Below, one piece after another: positions 53,232 through 62,154 of a stretch of DNA of 64,000 nucleotides; position 1 is the stretch's first letter, and the number at the start of each line of letters is the position of its first letter. A program made the translations under genes and the position numbers. Below the pieces are notes generated by a model. The model was given only the letters and a program-made list of their open reading frames with translations. It searched no databases and was not told the origin of the DNA. The stretch is taken from assembly GCF_009914755.1 (NCBI RefSeq), contig NC_060941.1; one strand, written 5' to 3'. Source of the DNA: the human T2T-CHM13v2.0 reference genome, Homo sapiens.

Positions 53232-56200
53232 TAGTAGAGACGGGGTTTCACCATGCTGGCCAAGCTGATCTCAAACTCCTGACCTCAGGTGATCTGCTCA
53301 CCTTGGCCTCCCAAAGAGTTAGGATTACAGGCATGAGCCACCATGCCTGGCCAGTTATTGGTTCCGATGTGCCCAGAACTTGGCACACAGTAGGTGCTCT
53401 AAAAAACCTTTGTGGAGAGAAATAGAGGGAGCAGGTGCAGTGTGAGGTAGGAGTGTGGGTGTGGGGTGTGCATAAGCCACGTGGCACCCAAGATACTCTT
53501 GTGGCACCTCTGTACCTCCCCATCGCGGCTGCTGGGGGCTGGCTGACTTGGGAAATGGTATCAGCTGTGCTGTCCCGTCAAGACCCTAGCGGCTCAGGAG
53601 TTGTTAATGTCAGGGTGAACCTGAGGTCAAGGGTCACTGAGAGTGACCTGGTGACCTCCTCCCACGGCTCCTAGAGCAGATTTGAACCCACCCTGGCAGT
53701 GTGAAGAATCCATGGTTCTCCACCCTGTGACAATGGTGGGGGATGGAGGGGCCCTTCCAAGATGGGGCCAAGCCCAGCCCTCTCTGACCTCTCATTCTGA
53801 GTAGCAGGAGAGCTGTGCCTGGTGTCCTTGGGGAAAGGGGAAAAGGCAGATCACGCCCGAGGCCAGGCCTCTGCTCAGGAGACCCAGCCCAGCCTCTGCT
53901 CCCAGTGGCCTGAGTGGAGGAGGCCCGGTGGACAGTGGGCATGTGCCACTGAGCCGCTCCCGCTGGGCCCACCTTCAGTACCGTGGGTTTGGTGAGGGTA
54001 GGGCCCACACCACCCACAGGGAAGAGTGTGAGGGACACAGAGTCAGACACACAGACACACCAAGAGGAGAGAGAGAAGGAGGCAGATCCAGAGCCAGTTC
54101 CAAGGGCCTCTGGGAGGGAGGAGAAGACTTCAAAGCGCTCCCAAACAGCTTATAAACAAGCCAGTGGGCGGGGCAGCCAGCATGGGCTGGGGGTCGCTTT
54201 CTGGAGGGGCTGGAAGCTTGCACGGGGTGTGTGGAGGCCATAGGCCCGGGGTGGGCAGGAGGAGGGCCCAGCCTAACCTCTCTGTGACTCGGTTTCCTCT
54301 CCCGCGCTAGGGAGCTCCCTCCTGGGGCTGCCGTGGGGTCAGCAGCAACGTGCAGGTGAAAACACTGTGTGGGCTCCAGGCCGATCAGATGTTATTTATT
54401 ATTCTGAGCTGTGTTTTGGTGGGAGACTTGGAAGGGCTGGAGGGAGAGTCAGAGTGCTTTGGGCTCCTCTCTTTCCCGATGCTGCTTTGAGAGTTCTCAG
54501 AGTAGAACGTCCAGGAATGGGGCCCGGGAAGGAGAAGTCCGTGGCTTGAGACAGGACCAGGCTGGGTGTGGGGGCTTTCTCCATCAGCCCCAGGAGTGGG
54601 GGTAGGATGGCCAAGCTTCCCCTGCCCTGCCGTGTGCCCCTCTCCTGCCCTCCTCAGCACCCCCCAACCTCTGCTCGGTGCCTCCCCTCCTCCGACCCCC
54701 TCTCATCTCTCCCACACCCTCTAATGGTCTCTTGGGACTGCCCAGAAATCGGCCTCCTCTCCTTGGATACTTGTCCTGGCCTAATGGGGCTGTGACAGTT
54801 TTTCTAAGTCCTGCTTATAAATGTGTCACTGTCCATGTCCCTTTGTGCTATCAAAGGAGGCTGCGCAAACCGCGTTTGTCCAAGGGCTGTGTGAAGGCCC
54901 CCGCGCGGAGCAGCTGGAACACGGGCTGATGAAATTACGGGGAATTCAAAGCAGCCGGCGTCGCCCGCTGTCTGGCTTCATTACGGGGACTGGCCTCGAA
55001 GGGAAGTTTATTCCAATAATTTAGAGGATTAGGATCTGACACCCTTCATTAGCGATTTGACATAAGCAGAAAAGACAGATCCTGCAGAATGGCCGCACAA
55101 CGGGAAGGGACCAGCTCAGGCGGGGAGAAGGCAGCACCCGCCCGGCTGGGAAGGGGAAGGGTCTGGGTGTGGAAGCGAGGGTCCCGTGGCCGTTTTACAG
55201 TCCTGTGAGATGGCGAGCTGTGTTCTTGAAGGGGAAAGTGGACGTGGGGAAGGAGCGGCCTGGGCTCAGGCCTCAGTTTCCTTAGCTGTAAAGCGAGATT
55301 ACCTTCAGGATCCCTTCCGTATCTGATGCGTGTGGGGGCCACTCCACCTACTGTCCCCGGGACACAGCAGCTCCTCAAGGCCCTTGTGGTTTGGCCTTGG
55401 AAAGGTACCTCTCTTTCGGGGCTCTATGTGCCTCCGCCCCCTACCCCCAGGATCGAGTGACCAACTCGAAAACACTCAGACTGCAGGCTGCTCTGTGGCA
55501 TTTTAGATAGAAGCCATTTGCTGCCAAATGGGGGAGGAATCGCCCCCAGCCCCTGGCAGCTTCTGGCTCTCTTCCCGGCCCCTCCACAAATATAGCCCCT
55601 GATGTTTCAAAAATTTCTTGTCCAGTCTGTGAAAACCAGAGTTTGGGCTGTGCCTTGACAGCAGTTCTGGCAGATGGATGGGGGAGGGGTGATTTTAAAA
55701 GGCCCCTGCCCACACCCAGCAAGCTGGTGTCCCTGTTTCCTGTACCGTGGTGGGGTAGCTGTGCGACATAGGCAGGTTGCTTAGCCTCTCTGTGCGTCCT
55801 TTCCTCCGATCTGAAATGGAGGTGCAGTTTGTTGTGAGGATTAAATGAGATGATGCGTTCAGAGAAGCCACACGTGTGAAGAGCCCAGTGCATCTGGCAG
55901 CTGGTACCACCAGGACTGCTCACTCTGTGCGACCTTGGACAAGTCGCTCGCCCTCTTCGACCACAGACCTTCTCCTTTGGGAAGTGGGGGAGGCCAGACA
56001 AGGCTGGCAGTCAGAAGGAGCTCACTGAAGAGCAGCCACTGTGGTCGTCAGCGAGGGCAGCTGGACTCCGGCACAATCCTGAGACACTGTGACCGCGGAG
56101 GTTTTCTCGGTGTGTCGATGGAAGAGGGAGGAATGTGATCCGTCCCAGCCGCCGGCGGGGCCAGAGCATATCTGGTATGTGTCTCTGGAATGATTTGGGG

Positions 56201-56796
56201 AAAATTAACTGAAGTTGGAACTTAAGACGCAAACTGCCCTGGACACAGAGATACAGAGCTGTCCGTGCGCACACCCCCCACAAAGGGCCGGGGCCGGGGT
56301 GGGAGTCGGCTTACAGGGCACAGCGCGGCGCAGGCCCGCCCTGGAATGGCCGTGAACTTGTTGTTTTTCCACGTCATTTGCTCTCAAATGTACTATCAAG
56401 CCGGGCGATGCTAACCCGGTGGCTGCAGGTCCCTCCTCGTAACAAGCGATTGTGTGTTCTTTAGAGGTGGCCAAAGGGGAGGAGGGGGCCCGGCCCCAAG
56501 GAGGTGGGGGAAAGGGAAACAAGCCCTCCTTCAGAGTGAGCTTGCGTGTCCTGGAGCCAGCTCCCCGCAAAGCACATGCCATTTCTGGCCCTTGAAGGGG
56601 TTAAAGGCCTCCTGGAGTCAAAAACAAGCAGGTGTCCCACCGTGCCAGATACGCTGCCTAAACTGCTTCCAGCTTCTTTTTTTTTTTTCCCCCCTTCTGC
56701 AATAAGTCTGTGATCAGCCACGGGACAGAGGCGCCAGCAGCCTGCCTGTGACAGGCATCAGGTTAGCTGGCTCCCACTCGGGTGGCGCGCCCAGGA

Positions 56797-56802
56797 TATA
56801 AA
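56797..56802 (+). promoter_or_regulatory. Candidate TATA box of WFIKKN2 in a GC/CpG-rich promoter region
   Basis: TATAAA lies in GC-rich context ~280 bp upstream of the ATG. I see no ATG between it and 57079. CpG is enriched over ~56250-56830. Confidence 0.65.
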
Positions 56803-57078
56803 TCCGGGCGCGGGCCCCTGCTGTGGCTCCTCTCCCTGCACACTCAGGAGAGGGAGCTTCCTTCTAAAGACCTTTCTTTTATCTGAAGCCGCACAGCCCG
56901 GCAGGCTGTGCTGACTTGGTGGAGGCAGCAGCGGCAGAGCAGCCTGAGCAGCAGCCTGAGCAGGAAACCTGCTGGGGTGGGGAGGGCAGGTGTCTGCAGC
57001 CCCTGAGAAGAAGGCCCTGGTGGGCCCCAGACCCTGGCATCGTTTCAGGGGAGGTCTCTAGCCGCCCCAGCCTGCACC

Positions 57079-57288
57079 ATGTGGGCCCCAAGGTGTCGCC
57101 GGTTCTGGTCTCGCTGGGAGCAGGTGGCAGCGCTGCTGCTGCTGCTGCTACTGCTCGGGGTGCCCCCGCGAAGCCTGGCGCTGCCGCCCATCCGCTATTC
57201 CCACGCCGGCATCTGCCCCAACGACATGAATCCCAACCTCTGGGTGGACGCACAGAGCACCTGCAGGCGGGAGTGTGAGACGGACCAG
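57079..57288 (+). CDS. WFIKKN2: WFIKKN2 coding exon 1: signal peptide and N-terminal half of the WAP domain (70 codons)
   Basis: Starts caccATGt and translates [70 protein letters not shown]. Ends at the consensus donor CAG|GTGAGT (57288|57289), phase 0. Confidence 0.97.
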
Positions 57289-57371
57289 GTGAGTGGGGTC
57301 CAGAGACCAGAGATGGACCACGTGAGCCTGTGAGTGACGGGGGTGGGAGCCGTCGGGGAGGGACTGTGTGG

Positions 57372-57956
57372 GAGTGTGAGGAGGACAACGTGAGTGGGGT
57401 CCAGAAGCCACAGTGTGAGGCGGACCAGGTGAGTGGTGTCCGGAAGCAGGAGTGTGAGATGGACCAGGTGAGTGGGATCCAGAAGCCACAGTGTGAGGCA
57501 GACCAGGTGAATGGGGTCCAGAAGCCGCAATGTGAGATGGACCAGGTGAGTGGTATCTAGAAGTGGGAGTGTGAGGTTGACCAGGTGAGTGGGGTCCAGA
57601 AGCCGGTGTGTGAGGCGGACCAGGTGAGTGGGGTCCAGAAGCCACAGTGTGAGATGGACCAGGTGAGTGGGGTCCAGAAGCCGCAATGTGAGATGGACCA
57701 GGTGAGTGGGATCTAGAAGTGGGAGTGTGAGGTGGACCAGGTGAGTGGGGTCCAGAAGCCACAGTGTGAGATGGACCAGGTGAGTGGGATCCAGAAGCTG
57801 GAGTGTGAGGCGGACCAGGTGAGTGGGATCTAGAAGTGGGAGTATGAGGTGGACCAGGTGAGTGGGGTCCAGAAGCCACAGTGTGAGATGGACCAGGTGA
57901 GTGGGATCCAGAAGCTGGAGTGTGAGGCGGACCAGGTGAGTGGGGTCCAGAAGCCA
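57372..57956 (+). repeat. 39-bp minisatellite, 15 units, in WFIKKN2 intron 1, derived from the exon1/intron1 junction
   Basis: Consensus (G/C)AGTGTGAG(AT/GC)GGACCAG|GTGAGTGGG(G/A)TCCAGAAGCCA. The GT dinucleotides recur exactly every 39 nt, from after 57389 to after 57935. Confidence 0.97.
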
Positions 57957-60189
57957 GAGATGGACCATATGAGCCTGTGAGTGATGGGGGTGGGAGCCAC
58001 AGGGTGGGGACCATGCAGGAGTGCCCTGCAGGTCCTAGGAAGGTGAAGGAACACAGGCCCCGTTCACCTGGAGAGAAACAGGGCACCATCCTGTCTATTA
58101 ACACCGAAGCCTGGAAGGAGAGGTGGGAGCGATGTCCCAGTTCATCAGGGACTGGAGCCCGAGGATTCCTCCTTCATGCGTGCTGAGGGCTACTGTGGCC
58201 AGCACCGTGCCGGGCATGTCGTGTGTGTTGGCATGACATGTCAGCATGGTGGGCATCAGCAGCCCATTCACAGGTGAGAGAGTGGACACAGAGCCAGGCA
58301 CGGAGGGCACAGTTGTCATGGCCAGTGAGGGAACGATGAGCTTGGAACTCATGTCTAACAAGAAAGCTTTGATTGCATTGGACTCCAGGCCACCTCCTCA
58401 GGAGTTTGGACCCTGAGCCTGAGAGAAGACCAGGCTGACGGCAGGCCAAGCAGGAGCAGCTCTGAATGGATCTCTGGTGTCCCTGGGAGGAAGGAGACCA
58501 CGTTTCAGCCTCCCAGCGTCCTTGGTCCTGCCTTCTGCTCTGTATCAGAGGGCACTGCTGCAGGGCAGGGCCAGTTCTCTTCTAGCTCCCGAGTCATTCC
58601 CGAGGGCCATTCCTGCCCACCCCCTCTGGGGCAACAGGCTGTGGGACCTACACCTGCTCCAGGCAGAGCTATTTCCTGCCCAGTCTGGCCAGCTCTGAGG
58701 GCAGCACGGAGTCTCCCAAGGCTCCAGATCCAGGCTGGGGCATCCCCAGGGAACACGAGAGACACTGGTTCCCCCATAGATGCCTGGTTACCCACAGGAG
58801 AGCAGAGGGCTGACCTGGAGAGGGTGGCCTCAACCTCACAGTGCCCAGGGACAATTCTTAGGCCTCCCAGGACAGATGCTCCCCTTGGGCAATGGTGGTG
58901 CCAAGTGAAAGGAAGATAAGAAGTCAGGAGGAGTGGTGGCTGCTCCCATCTGGCCAAGGTCACGCCATTAGTTGGCTACATTTGCAGGCACAGGCTGGCC
59001 TGATAAACCAGGTAGGGCTTGGGGATGGTGAGACTCTGGTGGATTTTGTGTGTCTTGGAGAGAAGGCACCTGTGGAAGGCTGGGTATCCAGACAGCCCTT
59101 GGGGACATTCTGGCCCCCTTACACAGAAGTGTTCTAAGGACCCCCTGTAGGTTCCCTGTGGCCAGAAGTACCTTCCCTCTGGTGCCCAAGGACCCAGGCT
59201 TTCATGGACCTCCAGGTCCTGAATGTCTTAGGGAATGGGATGAGGCTCAGGCCAAGGAGAAGGTTCTCCTGCTCCTACTCCCTCTCCTGCTCTCCATTCC
59301 CTGCGGGGTCTCTCTCCCTTAGACCCAGCTCTGAGAGCTGCCCATCCCTGTCCCAAAGCCTCCCCTGGTGTGGCCTAGAAGACTATGCCAAACAAGGGCT
59401 GCAAAACAAAGTCCCCATTCTGAGCCGAAACGGGTAGAACAGTAAACAAGTCAAGCAGGCAGGCTCCATGCAGCCAGGGTGGGGGGATATTTTCCCCCTC
59501 TTAGCTGATGTGGAATGTCAAAGAGGCTGAAATAAAAGTTGGAATGACAAGAGGCCAGCCCTAGTGGGGAGTAATTCACAGAGTTACTACCTGGTGGAGG
59601 ATTAGGAGCGTTGCCTGCCTGCCGAGTGGGTACGATGTGTTATTGTCGAAAACACCACATGAAATCCTTGTTTGTGTCAGCTCCAGGAGCATGTTGCTAA
59701 TTTCGAGGAATTAAACTAATGCTTTACGTGGCTCCACAGAATATCAGAGGGGATTACAGCCTGGCAAGTCCTCGCTGACGGCCTTGCTGACCTTTGCCAC
59801 ACAAGGGGACTTTTTTTCTTGTTGCTTTTCCGGTGAAAGGTCCCACACGGAGCTGATACCTGGGCCTGGCACAGCCTGTGGCTCTGAGACCTGGCGTGTG
59901 GGGCCCGTCACGCCTGCCCTGACTGTTGGCTGTGGATCAATCTGGGCCCTCTCACAGCCTCTGTTCCCCGTGTGTGTCGGTCTCCTTGAGGGGAGGAGAG
60001 GTGTGGATCACCTCGGATAAAGTCCCAGGAGCATTCCCCTCTTAACCTCTGATGCGATCTCTTCCAGTCAGCAAGGCATCCTCACTCCCATAGGAAAGAG
60101 ATGAAAGGCAGGCCTACTTGTTCAAGCTAGACCTCATTTGTGCTATATGATGCAGGAGAAAAAACTCCATTTCTCAATCCCTTCCACTG

Positions 60190-60500
60190 GAAGCTTGGAG
60201 CCTTGTTCTGCCACTTCCCGTCTCTGTGAACTTGGGCATCACCTCTCTGAGTCTCTGCAGTCTCATCTGTAAAATGGTTGTAGGAAAACTTTTAGAGTCT
60301 TTGGCCCACCCCTTCCTACCCTGCTAGCTGAGTGACCTTGGGAAAGTTACTTAGCCTCTCTGTGCCTCAGTCATCATCTGTGGAGTGGAGATAATGGCTA
60401 TACCCACCTCTGGCTTGTGATGAGCATAGCAAGCTCACAGATGTCAAAGTTCTTACACAGGGGCCTAGCATGTAGGAGATGCTACGTATGCATTCGTTAT
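60190..60500. mobile_element. MIR fragments in intron 1 (others at ~7325-7495, 22384-22580, 55770-55945)
   Basis: gtgaccttgggaaagttacttagcctctctgtgcctcagt...catctgt is the MIR core. Confidence 0.7.
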
Positions 60501-60633
60501 TATTTTCAAGTGTTTTGCTCCCACTAGATGGTGAGTACATGTTAGTTCTCCTCCCCACAAACCATGGGGTAGGATAGGGAGCCCCTCCTTTCCTCCTTCT
60601 CCCTGTTCAGGCCACTCTCTCTGGCTCTTTCAG

Positions 60634-62154
60634 GAGTGTGAGACCTATGAGAAGTGCTGCCCCAACGTATGTGGGACCAAGAGCTGCGTGGCGGCCCGCT
60701 ACATGGACGTGAAAGGGAAGAAGGGCCCAGTGGGCATGCCCAAGGAGGCCACATGTGACCACTTCATGTGTCTGCAGCAGGGCTCTGAGTGTGACATCTG
60801 GGATGGCCAGCCCGTGTGTAAGTGCAAAGACCGCTGTGAGAAGGAGCCCAGCTTTACCTGCGCCTCGGACGGCCTCACCTACTATAACCGCTGCTACATG
60901 GATGCCGAGGCCTGCTCCAAAGGCATCACACTGGCCGTTGTAACCTGCCGCTATCACTTCACCTGGCCCAACACCAGCCCCCCACCACCTGAGACCACCA
61001 TGCACCCCACCACAGCCTCCCCAGAGACCCCTGAGCTGGACATGGCGGCCCCTGCGCTGCTCAACAACCCTGTGCACCAGTCGGTCACCATGGGTGAGAC
61101 AGTGAGTTTCCTCTGTGATGTGGTGGGCCGGCCCCGGCCTGAGATCACCTGGGAGAAGCAGTTGGAGGATCGGGAGAATGTGGTCATGCGGCCCAACCAT
61201 GTGCGTGGCAACGTGGTGGTCACCAACATTGCCCAGCTGGTCATCTATAACGCCCAGCTGCAGGATGCTGGGATCTACACCTGCACGGCCCGGAACGTGG
61301 CTGGGGTCCTGAGGGCTGATTTCCCGCTGTCGGTGGTCAGGGGTCATCAGGCTGCAGCCACCTCAGAGAGCAGCCCCAATGGCACGGCTTTCCCGGCGGC
61401 CGAGTGCCTGAAGCCCCCAGACAGTGAGGACTGTGGCGAAGAGCAGACCCGCTGGCACTTCGATGCCCAGGCCAACAACTGCCTGACCTTCACCTTCGGC
61501 CACTGCCACCGTAACCTCAACCACTTTGAGACCTATGAGGCCTGCATGCTGGCCTGCATGAGCGGGCCGCTGGCCGCGTGCAGCCTGCCCGCCCTGCAGG
61601 GGCCCTGCAAAGCCTACGCGCCTCGCTGGGCTTACAACAGCCAGACGGGCCAGTGCCAGTCCTTTGTCTATGGTGGCTGCGAGGGCAATGGCAACAACTT
61701 TGAGAGCCGTGAGGCCTGTGAGGAGTCGTGCCCCTTCCCCAGGGGGAACCAGCGCTGTCGGGCCTGCAAGCCTCGGCAGAAGCTCGTTACCAGCTTCTGT
61801 CGCAGCGACTTTGTCATCCTGGGCCGAGTCTCTGAGCTGACCGAGGAGCCTGACTCGGGCCGCGCCCTGGTGACTGTGGATGAGGTCCTAAAGGATGAGA
61901 AAATGGGCCTCAAGTTCCTGGGCCAGGAGCCATTGGAGGTCACTCTGCTTCACGTGGACTGGGCATGCCCCTGCCCCAACGTGACCGTGAGCGAGATGCC
62001 GCTCATCATCATGGGGGAGGTGGACGGCGGCATGGCCATGCTGCGCCCCGATAGCTTTGTGGGCGCATCGAGTGCCCGCCGGGTCAGGAAGCTTCGTGAG
62101 GTCATGCACAAGAAGACCTGTGACGTCCTCAAGGAGTTTCTTGGCTTGCACTGA
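60634..62154 (+). CDS. WFIKKN2: WFIKKN2 coding exon 2: rest of WAP, follistatin/Kazal, Ig, Kunitz 1, Kunitz 2 and NTR domains (506 aa + stop)
   Basis: Polypyrimidine acceptor ctctctctggctctttcAG|GAGTGTGAG is in frame with ORF 60688..62154. Motifs seen: EKCCPNVCGTKSC (WAP), CASDGLTYYNRC (Kazal), DAGIYTC (Ig), FVYGGCEGNGNNF (Kunitz), FCRSDFVI (NTR). 70+506=576 aa, matching the recalled length of WFIKKN2. Confidence 0.97.
   Translation, partial: ECETYEKCCPNVCGTKSCVAARYMDVKGKKGPVGMPKEATCDHFMCLQQGSECDIWDGQPVCKCKDRCEKEPSFTCASDGLTYYNRCYMDAEACSKGITLAVVTCRYHFTWPNTSPPPPETTMHPTTASPETPELDMAAPALLNNPVHQSVTMGETVSFLCDVVGRPRPEITWEKQLEDRENVVMRPNHVRGNVVVTNIAQLVIYNAQLQDAGIYTCTARNVAGVLRADFPLSVVRGHQAAATSESSPNGTAFPAAECLKPPDSEDCGEEQTRWHFDAQANNCLTFTFGHCHRNLNHFETYEACMLACMSGPLAACSLPALQGPCKAYAPRWAYNSQTGQCQSFVYGGCEGNGNNFESREACEESCPFPRGNQRCRACKPRQKLVTSFCRSDFVILGRVSELTEEPDSGRALVTVDEVLKDEKMGLKFLGQEPLEVTLLHVDWACPCPNVTVSEMPLIIMGEVDGGMAMLRPDSFVGASSARRVRKLREVMHKKTCDVLKEFLGLH

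What the first reader, a model, noticed from the sequence alone, without database searches (positions are those of the whole stretch)
57271..57956. Intron-1 minisatellite is a phased array of consensus 5' splice sites copied from WFIKKN2's own exon-1 donor
Seen: the 39-bp unit is the exon1/intron1 junction itself. Donor-type GTs follow positions 57389, 57428, 57467, 57506, 57545, 57584, 57623, 57662, 57701, 57740, 57779, 57818, 57857, 57896 and 57935. Thirteen are perfect CAG|GTGAGT, identical to the true donor and to the U1 consensus, and each is followed by a G-run. The flanking positions vary between units while the donor core is almost invariant. Extending exon 1 to any of them crosses the in-frame TGA at 57331-57333, giving an 84-aa truncated product and probably NMD. 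Inference: the array is a copy-number-tunable U1 sink or 'poison donor' rheostat for a secreted antagonist of GDF8/GDF11 (that protein function is established knowledge). Alternatively it boosts transcription or protects against premature polyadenylation through dense promoter-proximal U1 loading.
Basis: partly seen in the sequence, partly recalled or inferred. Interest (0 to 1): 0.88.

Follow-up and report, generated by a model that had tools for sequence, protein, structure and literature searches.

The report
WFIKKN2 intron-1 minisatellite repeating its splice donor
A 39-base repeat just inside the first intron of human WFIKKN2 was copied from the gene's own exon-1 splice junction and so carries 13 perfect extra splice-donor signals; this kind of repeat is already known from a few other human genes, where the extra donors are mostly unused.

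Summary
Window 57372-57956 is 15 in-register 39-bp units. Each has a donor-type GT at the listed position. Thirteen read CAG|GTGAGT, like the true exon-1 donor at 57288|57289. That 9-mer occurs nowhere else in the 64 kb. Read-through of exon 1 stops at TGA 57331-57333, after 84 aa.

The array is nested in an older ~101-bp duplication of the exon-1/intron-1 junction.

The claim that the donor core is specially conserved is not statistically supported (P=0.25). Phased arrays of the same perfect 9-mer recur in other human minisatellites: 3 of 9 other places counted hold more copies than the 14 here.

The architecture belongs to a known class of exon/intron-boundary minisatellites: F7 IVS7, IFI6, CBS, LMNB2 and PDGF. 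In those genes the reiterated donors are functional but silent, or only the first two are used.

My best reading is a duplication by-product whose donors ride out with the intron. A small leak would give transcripts with a premature stop that are degraded.

The "poison-donor/U1-sink rheostat" remains untested. It is not excluded, because perfect-consensus pseudo-sites did compete in F7 minigenes, and WFIKKN2 has a very strong cis-pQTL for which the passages I read name no causal variant. No paper linking WFIKKN2 to a VNTR was found.

The parts
56727..57288 (+). WFIKKN2 exon 1 (coding 57079-57288, 70 codons)
   Evidence: Hub annotation. The ATG at 57079 and the frame were read. The exon ends on a codon boundary.
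57286..57294 (+). Authentic exon-1 donor CAG|GTGAGT (cleavage after 57288)
   Evidence: It matches the consensus at 9 of 9 positions. U1 duplex energy is -13.3 kcal/mol, the same as every perfect array site.
57271..57371 (+). Copy 1 of an older ~101-bp duplication: the last 18 nt of exon 1 plus the first 83 nt of intron 1
   Evidence: 57267-57376 aligns without gaps to 57914-58023 at 94 of 110 identity. The first array donor lies 101 nt after the true donor.
57331..57333 (+). In-frame TGA that ends any read-through of exon 1 after 84 aa
   Evidence: Translation.
57372..57956 (+). 15 in-register 39-bp units, each with a donor-type site (13 perfect CAG|GTGAGT). There is a 117-bp higher-order period. 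14 of the 15 units are distinct in sequence.
57957..58023 (+). Remainder of copy 2 of the ~101-bp duplication, directly after the array
   Evidence: Alignment.
60634..60644 (+). First 11 nt of exon 2 (after acceptor ...ttcag|). They are identical to the first 11 nt of the segment that seeded the repeat unit (57271-57281).
   Evidence: This 11-mer occurs at only these two places on the + strand of the window.

Best explanation
The array is an exon/intron-boundary minisatellite and a by-product of duplication, not a purpose-built device. A ~101-bp segment spanning the WFIKKN2 exon-1 donor was first duplicated in tandem. The first 39 bp of the second copy then amplified to 15 units by unequal exchange or slippage. 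Every unit therefore inherited the perfect donor CAG|GTGAGT. In the pre-mRNA the authentic donor comes first, is nearest the cap and is equally perfect, so it is used for productive splicing to 60634, and the array leaves with the intron. U1 probably binds the copies transiently (inferred). Any minor use of an array donor gives an mRNA with a stop after 84 codons that still contains intact upstream 5' splice-site motifs. Such an mRNA would be retained in the nucleus and degraded, or removed by NMD. On this reading array length has at most a small effect on WFIKKN2 output. Shown here: the anatomy, the origin, the premature stop, and the lack of evidence for selection on the core. Inferred: which donor is used, U1 binding, and the fate of leak products.
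For: Origin by duplication: the unit is the junction itself, and the array is bracketed by a 110-bp direct repeat at 94 of 110 identity. Ongoing block duplication: units 11 and 14 are identical, and units 10/13, 5/9 and 7/15 each differ by 1. No sign of selection on the donor core: P=0.38 and 0.25. 25 of 55 minor-allele cells fall in 8 CpG-capable columns, and CpG o/e in the array is 0.15-0.22. The motif array is not unique: the triple-donor pattern gives 140 genome matches against 52 for the reversed control. The 100 listed matches fall in 16 places. Counts of the perfect 9-mer at 9 other places are 4-34, against 14 here. Precedent: the sections of Borensztajn 2006 that I read (PMC1557585) show that F7 pseudo-sites are functional but unused and that the most upstream site wins. 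The same paper lists LMNB2 and PDGF as using only the authentic site, and IFI6 and CBS as using only the first two pseudo-sites. The hub table gives exon 1 of the selected transcript NM_175575.6 as ending at 57288 and lists no exon that ends at an array donor. [quoted passage not shown]
Against: In the F7 minigenes, pseudo-sites mutated to CAG/gtgagt were used at about 70% and 90%, though against a weak authentic site with a consensus value of 74. The WFIKKN2 copies are all of that perfect type. Classical cis-competition work, which I recall but could not read (Eperon 1993; Hicks 2010, not held), favours the donor nearest the acceptor when several strong sites are occupied. That would favour 57935. 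Degraded products would not appear in annotation, so their absence from the hub table is weak evidence. WFIKKN2 has a very strong common cis-pQTL (rs11079936, p=6.9e-136), and the passages I read name no causal variant. No RNA-seq, U1 occupancy or population genotypes could be examined.
Confidence: 0.6

Rival explanations
1. Poison-donor rheostat. A substantial share of transcripts, depending on copy number, splices from array donors to 60634. This gives RNAs with a premature stop that are destroyed, so array length sets WFIKKN2 output.
For: All 13 copies match the true donor in the 9-mer and in computed U1 pairing (-13.3 kcal/mol). All lie at least 56 nt past the TGA, so NMD rules apply. Perfect pseudo-sites competed in F7 minigenes. 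A CBS boundary VNTR is reported, by title only, as associated with reduced enzyme activity (Lievers 2001, reference list). There is a strong cis-pQTL with no causal variant named in the passages I read.
Against: Natural boundary minisatellites use the authentic site, or at most the first two pseudo-sites. Here the first perfect copy is 140 nt downstream and the nearest copy is degenerate (AAC|GT). There is no statistical sign of selection on the core. No paper links WFIKKN2 with VNTR or sQTL (0 hits each). The hub table lists no exon ending at an array donor.
Confidence: 0.15
2. U1 loading platform. Dense promoter-proximal U1 binding on the nascent RNA boosts transcription or protects against premature cleavage and polyadenylation, without the sites being spliced.
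For: Fourteen perfect U1 target sites lie 560-1210 nt from the annotated start of exon 1 (56727). The general phenomena (telescripting, stimulation of transcription by a promoter-proximal 5' splice site) are established knowledge that I recall; I read nothing on them here.
Against: The only AATAAA/ATTAAA hexamers in intron 1 are at 59531 and 59710, at least 1.58 kb beyond the array. The intron is only 3.3 kb, so there is little nearby to suppress. The true donor already supplies a perfect site. Similar arrays exist elsewhere as plain minisatellites.
Confidence: 0.08
3. DNA-level element. The array acts through the DNA, either as a cluster of 15 CAGGTG E2-boxes (targets of E-proteins, ZEB and SNAI factors by established knowledge, recalled) or as a strongly G-skewed, R-loop-prone stretch just downstream of the promoter. 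The donor motif would be incidental.
For: 15 of the window's 117 CAGGTG sites lie in 57286-57938. GC skew is 0.46-0.51 across the array against 0.2 or less in most of the flanking sequence.
Against: Both properties follow automatically from repeating one unit. The array is not a CpG island (o/e 0.15-0.22). Units lack closely spaced G-runs, so classical G-quadruplexes are unlikely (my reading). No binding or chromatin data are available.
Confidence: 0.1

Closest known systems
F7 intron-7 37-bp VNTR (Borensztajn et al. 2006, PLoS Genet, PMC1557585; abstract, introduction, results section 9 and discussion read)
   Same: It is a minisatellite derived from an exon/intron boundary, so the authentic donor is followed by in-phase identical pseudo-donors. 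Use of most pseudo-sites would give a premature stop. It is polymorphic in unit number (5-9).
   Different: The F7 sites are weak (TGG/gtgggt, consensus value 74), while those in WFIKKN2 are perfect. The F7 array starts at the boundary itself, while here a 62-nt non-repeated remainder of the first 101-bp copy separates the boundary from the array. F7 involves an internal exon, WFIKKN2 a first exon. There are 15 units here. Polymorphism was not tested here.
IFI6 (6-16) intron-2 minisatellite (Turri 1995, as described in PMC1557585; the original is not held)
   Same: The authentic donor is followed by many reiterated pseudo-sites (25).
   Different: In IFI6 the two nearest pseudo-sites are used constitutively. 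Usage in WFIKKN2 is unknown, and any use would truncate the protein.
CBS exon-13/intron-13 31-bp VNTR (Yang 2000 and Lievers 2001; seen only as a description and reference titles)
   Same: It is a boundary VNTR with 15-20 units in which two pseudo-sites are used. One title reports association with reduced enzyme activity. This is the nearest precedent for a copy-number 'rheostat'.
   Different: It involves an internal exon of an enzyme gene. I did not read the papers, so effect sizes and mechanism are unverified.
LMNB2 (100-bp unit) and PDGF intron-4 (81-bp unit) boundary minisatellites (as listed in PMC1557585)
   Same: They have reiterated donors, and only the authentic one is used. This is the behaviour I predict for WFIKKN2.
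   Different: Their units are longer. I did not see their site strengths.
Nuclear surveillance of mRNAs with intact 5' splice-site motifs (Lee et al. 2022, RNA, PMC9074902; abstract read)
   Same: Any WFIKKN2 mRNA made from a downstream array donor would keep 1-14 intact upstream 5'SS motifs, which is the feature this pathway recognises.
   Different: This is a pathway, not a sequence family. Its application to WFIKKN2 is inference.

Membership tests
Exon/intron-boundary minisatellite with reiterated 5' pseudo-splice sites (F7, IFI6, CBS, LMNB2, PDGF class) | Tandem array of minisatellite-size units inside the intron | tested here: met
   39-bp x 14.9 copies, 83% matches; 15 in-register units.
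Exon/intron-boundary minisatellite with reiterated 5' pseudo-splice sites (F7, IFI6, CBS, LMNB2, PDGF class) | The first monomer spans the exon/intron boundary, so the unit contains the authentic donor | tested here: met
   The junction 39-mer (57271-57309) matches the unit consensus at 34 of 39 positions. There is a variation: the boundary copy belongs to a 101-bp parent unit, and the 39-bp array begins 84 nt into the intron.
Exon/intron-boundary minisatellite with reiterated 5' pseudo-splice sites (F7, IFI6, CBS, LMNB2, PDGF class) | [quoted passage not shown] | tested here: met
   13 of 15 are identical over the 9-mer.
Exon/intron-boundary minisatellite with reiterated 5' pseudo-splice sites (F7, IFI6, CBS, LMNB2, PDGF class) | Variable unit number between people (VNTR) | not testable with these tools
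   Only one human assembly is held. Near-identical unit pairs suggest recent turnover, which is indirect evidence.
Exon/intron-boundary minisatellite with reiterated 5' pseudo-splice sites (F7, IFI6, CBS, LMNB2, PDGF class) | Pseudo-sites silent, or only the most upstream ones used | not testable with these tools
   No RNA data. The hub table lists no exon that ends at an array donor.
NMD-coupled unproductive splicing ('poison' splice sites) | The alternative site gives a stop more than 50-55 nt upstream of the last exon junction | tested here: met
   TGA at 57331-57333; 56-602 nt from the stop to the junction for the 15 sites. The first site is borderline at 56 nt.
NMD-coupled unproductive splicing ('poison' splice sites) | The alternative site is actually used and its product rises when decay is blocked | not testable with these tools
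   No transcript data. 0 papers hold both WFIKKN2 and sQTL.
U1 telescripting / anti-polyadenylation element | A cryptic polyadenylation signal within the range protected by the U1 sites | tested here: not met
   The first AATAAA is at 59531 and the first ATTAAA at 59710, at least 1.58 kb beyond the array end. The roughly 1-kb protective range is recalled, not checked.
U1 telescripting / anti-polyadenylation element | U1 snRNP occupancy on the sites | not testable with these tools
   Only computed pairing is available: -13.3 kcal/mol for each perfect site.
PRDM9-hotspot-driven minisatellite | Presence of the 13-mer hotspot motif CCNCCNTNNCCNC (motif recalled) | tested here: not met
   0 of the 182 window matches at up to 1 mismatch fall between 57205 and 58814.

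The most novel reading that the evidence does not exclude
The number of 39-bp units is the causal variant, or a major contributor, behind the very strong common cis-pQTL of WFIKKN2, and through it the trans effect on circulating GDF8/GDF11. Longer arrays would divert more transcripts to perfect intronic donors. The products would be destroyed by nuclear 5'SS-motif surveillance and NMD. A minisatellite of splice donors would then act as a heritable dial on a myostatin antagonist.
Probability: 0.08. Interest if true: 0.75.

Novelty: new member of a known kind. Interest (0 to 1): 0.4.

Why it matters
WFIKKN2 binds GDF8 (myostatin) and GDF11. A common variant near the gene changes its plasma level (p=6.9e-136) and, through it, GDF11/8. 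A length-variable array of 13 perfect splice donors, starting 84 nt (first perfect donor 140 nt) beyond the only coding splice donor, is a plausible hidden variant that SNP-based studies would miss.

The locus is also a clean natural test of how the spliceosome chooses among identical sites. All 14 sites are perfect, and 14 of the 15 units differ in sequence, so reads can tell them apart. 'Most upstream wins' predicts 57288. The proximity rule predicts 57935. If the array is silent, as I expect, it is one more example of a class described since 1995 and is of modest interest.

Tried and rejected
- **RNA structure masking or presenting the donors:** the fold of 57250-58030 has z=-0.59, and 5 of 20 shuffles fold at least as well. 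Rejected.
- **Known RNA family:** 0 Rfam matches in 55500-61000.
- **Other genomic copies of the unit:** a 261-bp query from the array hit only the array itself, 4 offset matches. The tool skips simple repeats, so this is a lower bound.
- **PRDM9 hotspot motif:** none in or near the array.
- **Coding potential:**
  - The + frames have 3, 15 and 16 stops in the array.
  - The - strand has stop-free frames of 341 and 279 codons across it. I treat these as the trivial result of a stop-free 13-codon unit.
- **Selection on the donor core:** not significant.
- **Literature:**
  - WFIKKN2 + VNTR gave 0 papers.
  - WFIKKN2 + 'tandem repeat' gave 2 papers, both unrelated to judge by title and abstract.
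  - WFIKKN2 + sQTL gave 0 papers.
  - A five-term search with min_terms 2 was badly designed and uninformative.
- **Supplements:**
  - 'WFIKKN2' has 0 occurrences in the one held supplementary file of PMC11701250.
VNTR/SV-eQTL or pQTL tables that might list this locus were therefore not seen.
- **Papers and notes not available:** Turri 1995 and Hicks 2010 are not held. Earlier scan notes were not open.

Full report
**Observation**

The sequence is as described. Tandem Repeats Finder reports a 39-bp unit repeated 14.9 times at 57373-57955 (83% matches) and a 117-bp higher-order period. In register with the exon-1 junction, the array is 15 units spanning 57372-57956.

- Every one of the 15 listed positions is followed by GT.
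- 13 of the 15 read CAG|GTGAGT. The exceptions are the first unit (AAC|GTGAGT after 57389) and the fourth (CAG|GTGAAT after 57506).
- Including the true donor after 57288, the 64-kb window has 14 copies of CAGGTGAGT. All lie in 57271-57956 on the + strand, with none on the - strand.
- Extending exon 1 past its donor meets TGA at 57331-57333 after 84 codons.
- The 15 array donors lie 56-602 nt beyond that stop and would make first exons of 663-1209 nt.
- The computed pairing energy to the 5' end of U1 (motif recalled) is -13.3 kcal/mol for all 14 perfect sites.

**Anatomy and origin**

The 39-mer across the real junction differs from the unit consensus at 5 of 39 positions (my reading). The array is also nested in a larger, older repeat: 57267-57376 aligns without gaps to 57914-58023 at 94 of 110 identity. 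The first array donor lies exactly 101 nt after the true donor.

The simplest history has two steps. First, a ~101-bp tandem duplication spanned the exon-1 donor. Then the first 39 bp of the second copy were amplified.

The roughly 14.5% divergence of the outer repeat suggests the first step is old. I estimate tens of millions of years, using a recalled neutral rate; this is rough and inflated by CpG decay. In contrast, units 11 and 14 are identical, and units 10/13, 5/9 and 7/15 differ by one base. The array has therefore been turning over recently. That is indirect support for length polymorphism, which I could not test.

**Is the donor core under selection?**

The numbers do not support selection.

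- 3 of 9 core columns vary against 14 of 30 others (hypergeometric P=0.38; 0.058 without the degenerate first unit).
- Counting minimum substitution events gives 3 per 9 core columns against 18 per 30 others (binomial P=0.25; 0.057 without unit 1).
- The invariant block is wider than the donor (-6 to +8), and other blocks are equally invariant.
- 25 of the 55 minor-allele cells lie in 8 CpG-capable columns, in an array with CpG o/e of 0.15-0.22.
- The large counts at variable columns reflect a few differences copied along the 117-bp higher-order repeat.

I see no evidence beyond mutation bias and concerted evolution.

**Is such an array unusual in the genome?**

A search of the window's own assembly for three CAGGTGAGT spaced 25-55 nt apart found 140 matches (93 forward, 47 reverse), against 26+26 for the reversed-pattern control. 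The 100 listed matches fall in 16 places, one of which is this locus with 9 matches. The other 40 matches were not listed.

Loci were stored for 9 other places. Their counts of the perfect 9-mer per ~3-kb locus are 7, 13, 4, 15, 7, 7, 18, 8 and 34, against 14 here. Three of the nine exceed this locus.

Phased arrays of the consensus donor are therefore a recurrent by-product of G-rich human minisatellites. What is particular here is the position and sense: directly downstream of, and derived from, the gene's only coding splice donor. I could not tell whether the other arrays lie in genes.

**Other properties checked**

- The array RNA has no unusual predicted structure (z=-0.59).
- There is no Rfam match in 55500-61000.
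- No other copy of the unit was found in the genome (a lower bound).
- There is no PRDM9-type motif in or near the array.
- The only AATAAA/ATTAAA hexamers in intron 1 are at 59531 and 59710, at least 1.58 kb past the array. This weakens the anti-polyadenylation idea.
- The array is strongly G-skewed on the sense strand (0.46-0.51).
- It contains 15 of the window's 117 CAGGTG E-box motifs.
- Both of these last two properties follow from repeating one unit, but they allow DNA-level rival explanations.

**What is known**

Borensztajn et al. 2006 (PMC1557585; abstract, introduction, results section 9 and discussion read) describe exactly this class: minisatellites whose first monomer spans an exon/intron boundary, so that the donor is reiterated in the intron.

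- In F7 intron 7 (37-bp unit, 5-9 copies) the pseudo-sites are functional but silent. [quoted passage not shown]
- Pseudo-sites improved to a consensus value of 91 still did not compete.
- Only pseudo-sites made perfect (CAG/gtgagt) were used, at about 70% and 90%, and that was against a weak authentic site.
- The paper lists further members. IFI6/6-16 has 25 pseudo-sites, with the two nearest used. CBS intron 13 has 15-20 repeats, with two pseudo-sites used. LMNB2 and PDGF intron 4 use only the authentic site.
- For CBS I saw only reference titles. One reports association of the VNTR with reduced enzyme activity.

WFIKKN2 fits the class on the three sequence features I could test. It has two variations: the sites are all perfect, and a 62-nt non-repeated remainder of the first 101-bp copy lies between the boundary and the array.

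I found no paper connecting WFIKKN2 with a VNTR (0 hits), with sQTL (0 hits), or with a relevant tandem repeat (2 papers, unrelated by title and abstract). The one VNTR-catalogue supplement I could search has no occurrence of the gene name.

**Mechanism**

My best reading (0.6) is a passenger. The authentic donor is first, nearest the cap and as strong as any copy, so it is used, and the array is removed with the intron.

If a downstream copy is occasionally used, the mRNA carries a premature stop and also keeps intact upstream 5'SS motifs. According to the abstract of Lee et al. 2022 (PMC9074902), such motifs cause nuclear retention and decay through ZFC3H1 and U1-70K.

The rheostat reading (0.15) stays open for three reasons. 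The copies are perfect. The classical proximity rule (recalled, not read) would favour downstream sites. Sun et al. (bioRxiv 10.1101/134551; passages read) report a cis-pQTL for WFIKKN2 at p=6.9e-136 that fully mediates a GDF11/8 trans-pQTL, and those passages name no causal variant.

The U1-platform reading (0.08) and the DNA-level readings (0.1) have only circumstantial support.

**Verdict**

The structural interpretation is correct. The functional interpretation is untested, and most precedent is against it. This is a new member of a known kind, apparently undescribed for this gene in the searchable literature. Its interest is moderate: it offers a natural 14-way competition among identical perfect donors, and it is a candidate hidden variant at a strong pQTL locus.

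Noticed in passing
window 57271-57288 and 60634-60651: The last 18 nt of exon 1 (the segment that seeds the repeat unit) and the first 18 nt of exon 2 begin with the same 11-mer. This 11-mer occurs at only these two places on the + strand of the window. The spliced mRNA therefore carries an imperfect 18-nt tandem repeat (14 of 18 by my count), encoding ECETDQ/ECETYE, with the intron exactly between the two copies.
   Followed up: partly
window 57321|57322: A donor-like site CAC|GTGAGC lies 33 nt into the intron and upstream of the TGA. Its use would add 11 in-frame codons rather than truncate the protein. A second site, CCT|GTGAGT, follows 57329.
   Followed up: no
window 57148-58173 and 57195-58034, minus strand: Stop-free frames of 341 and 279 codons run antisense through the array. 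This is probably the trivial result of a 13-codon unit without stops. The translation is a Pro/Ser/Gly/His-rich repeat.
   Followed up: no
G000 places listed (for example loci L008, L014, L017, L028): Other human minisatellites with units of about 12-49 bp carry the perfect 9-mer CAGGTGAGT in every or nearly every unit (4-34 copies per ~3-kb locus). By their coordinates many lie near chromosome ends. I did not determine whether any sits in sense orientation inside a gene.
   Followed up: partly
window 57350-57950: The sense strand of the array has GC skew 0.46-0.51, far above most of the flanking sequence. It sits about 0.6-1.2 kb downstream of the annotated start of exon 1 (56727). That composition is associated with R-loop formation (recalled knowledge, untested here).
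   Followed up: no
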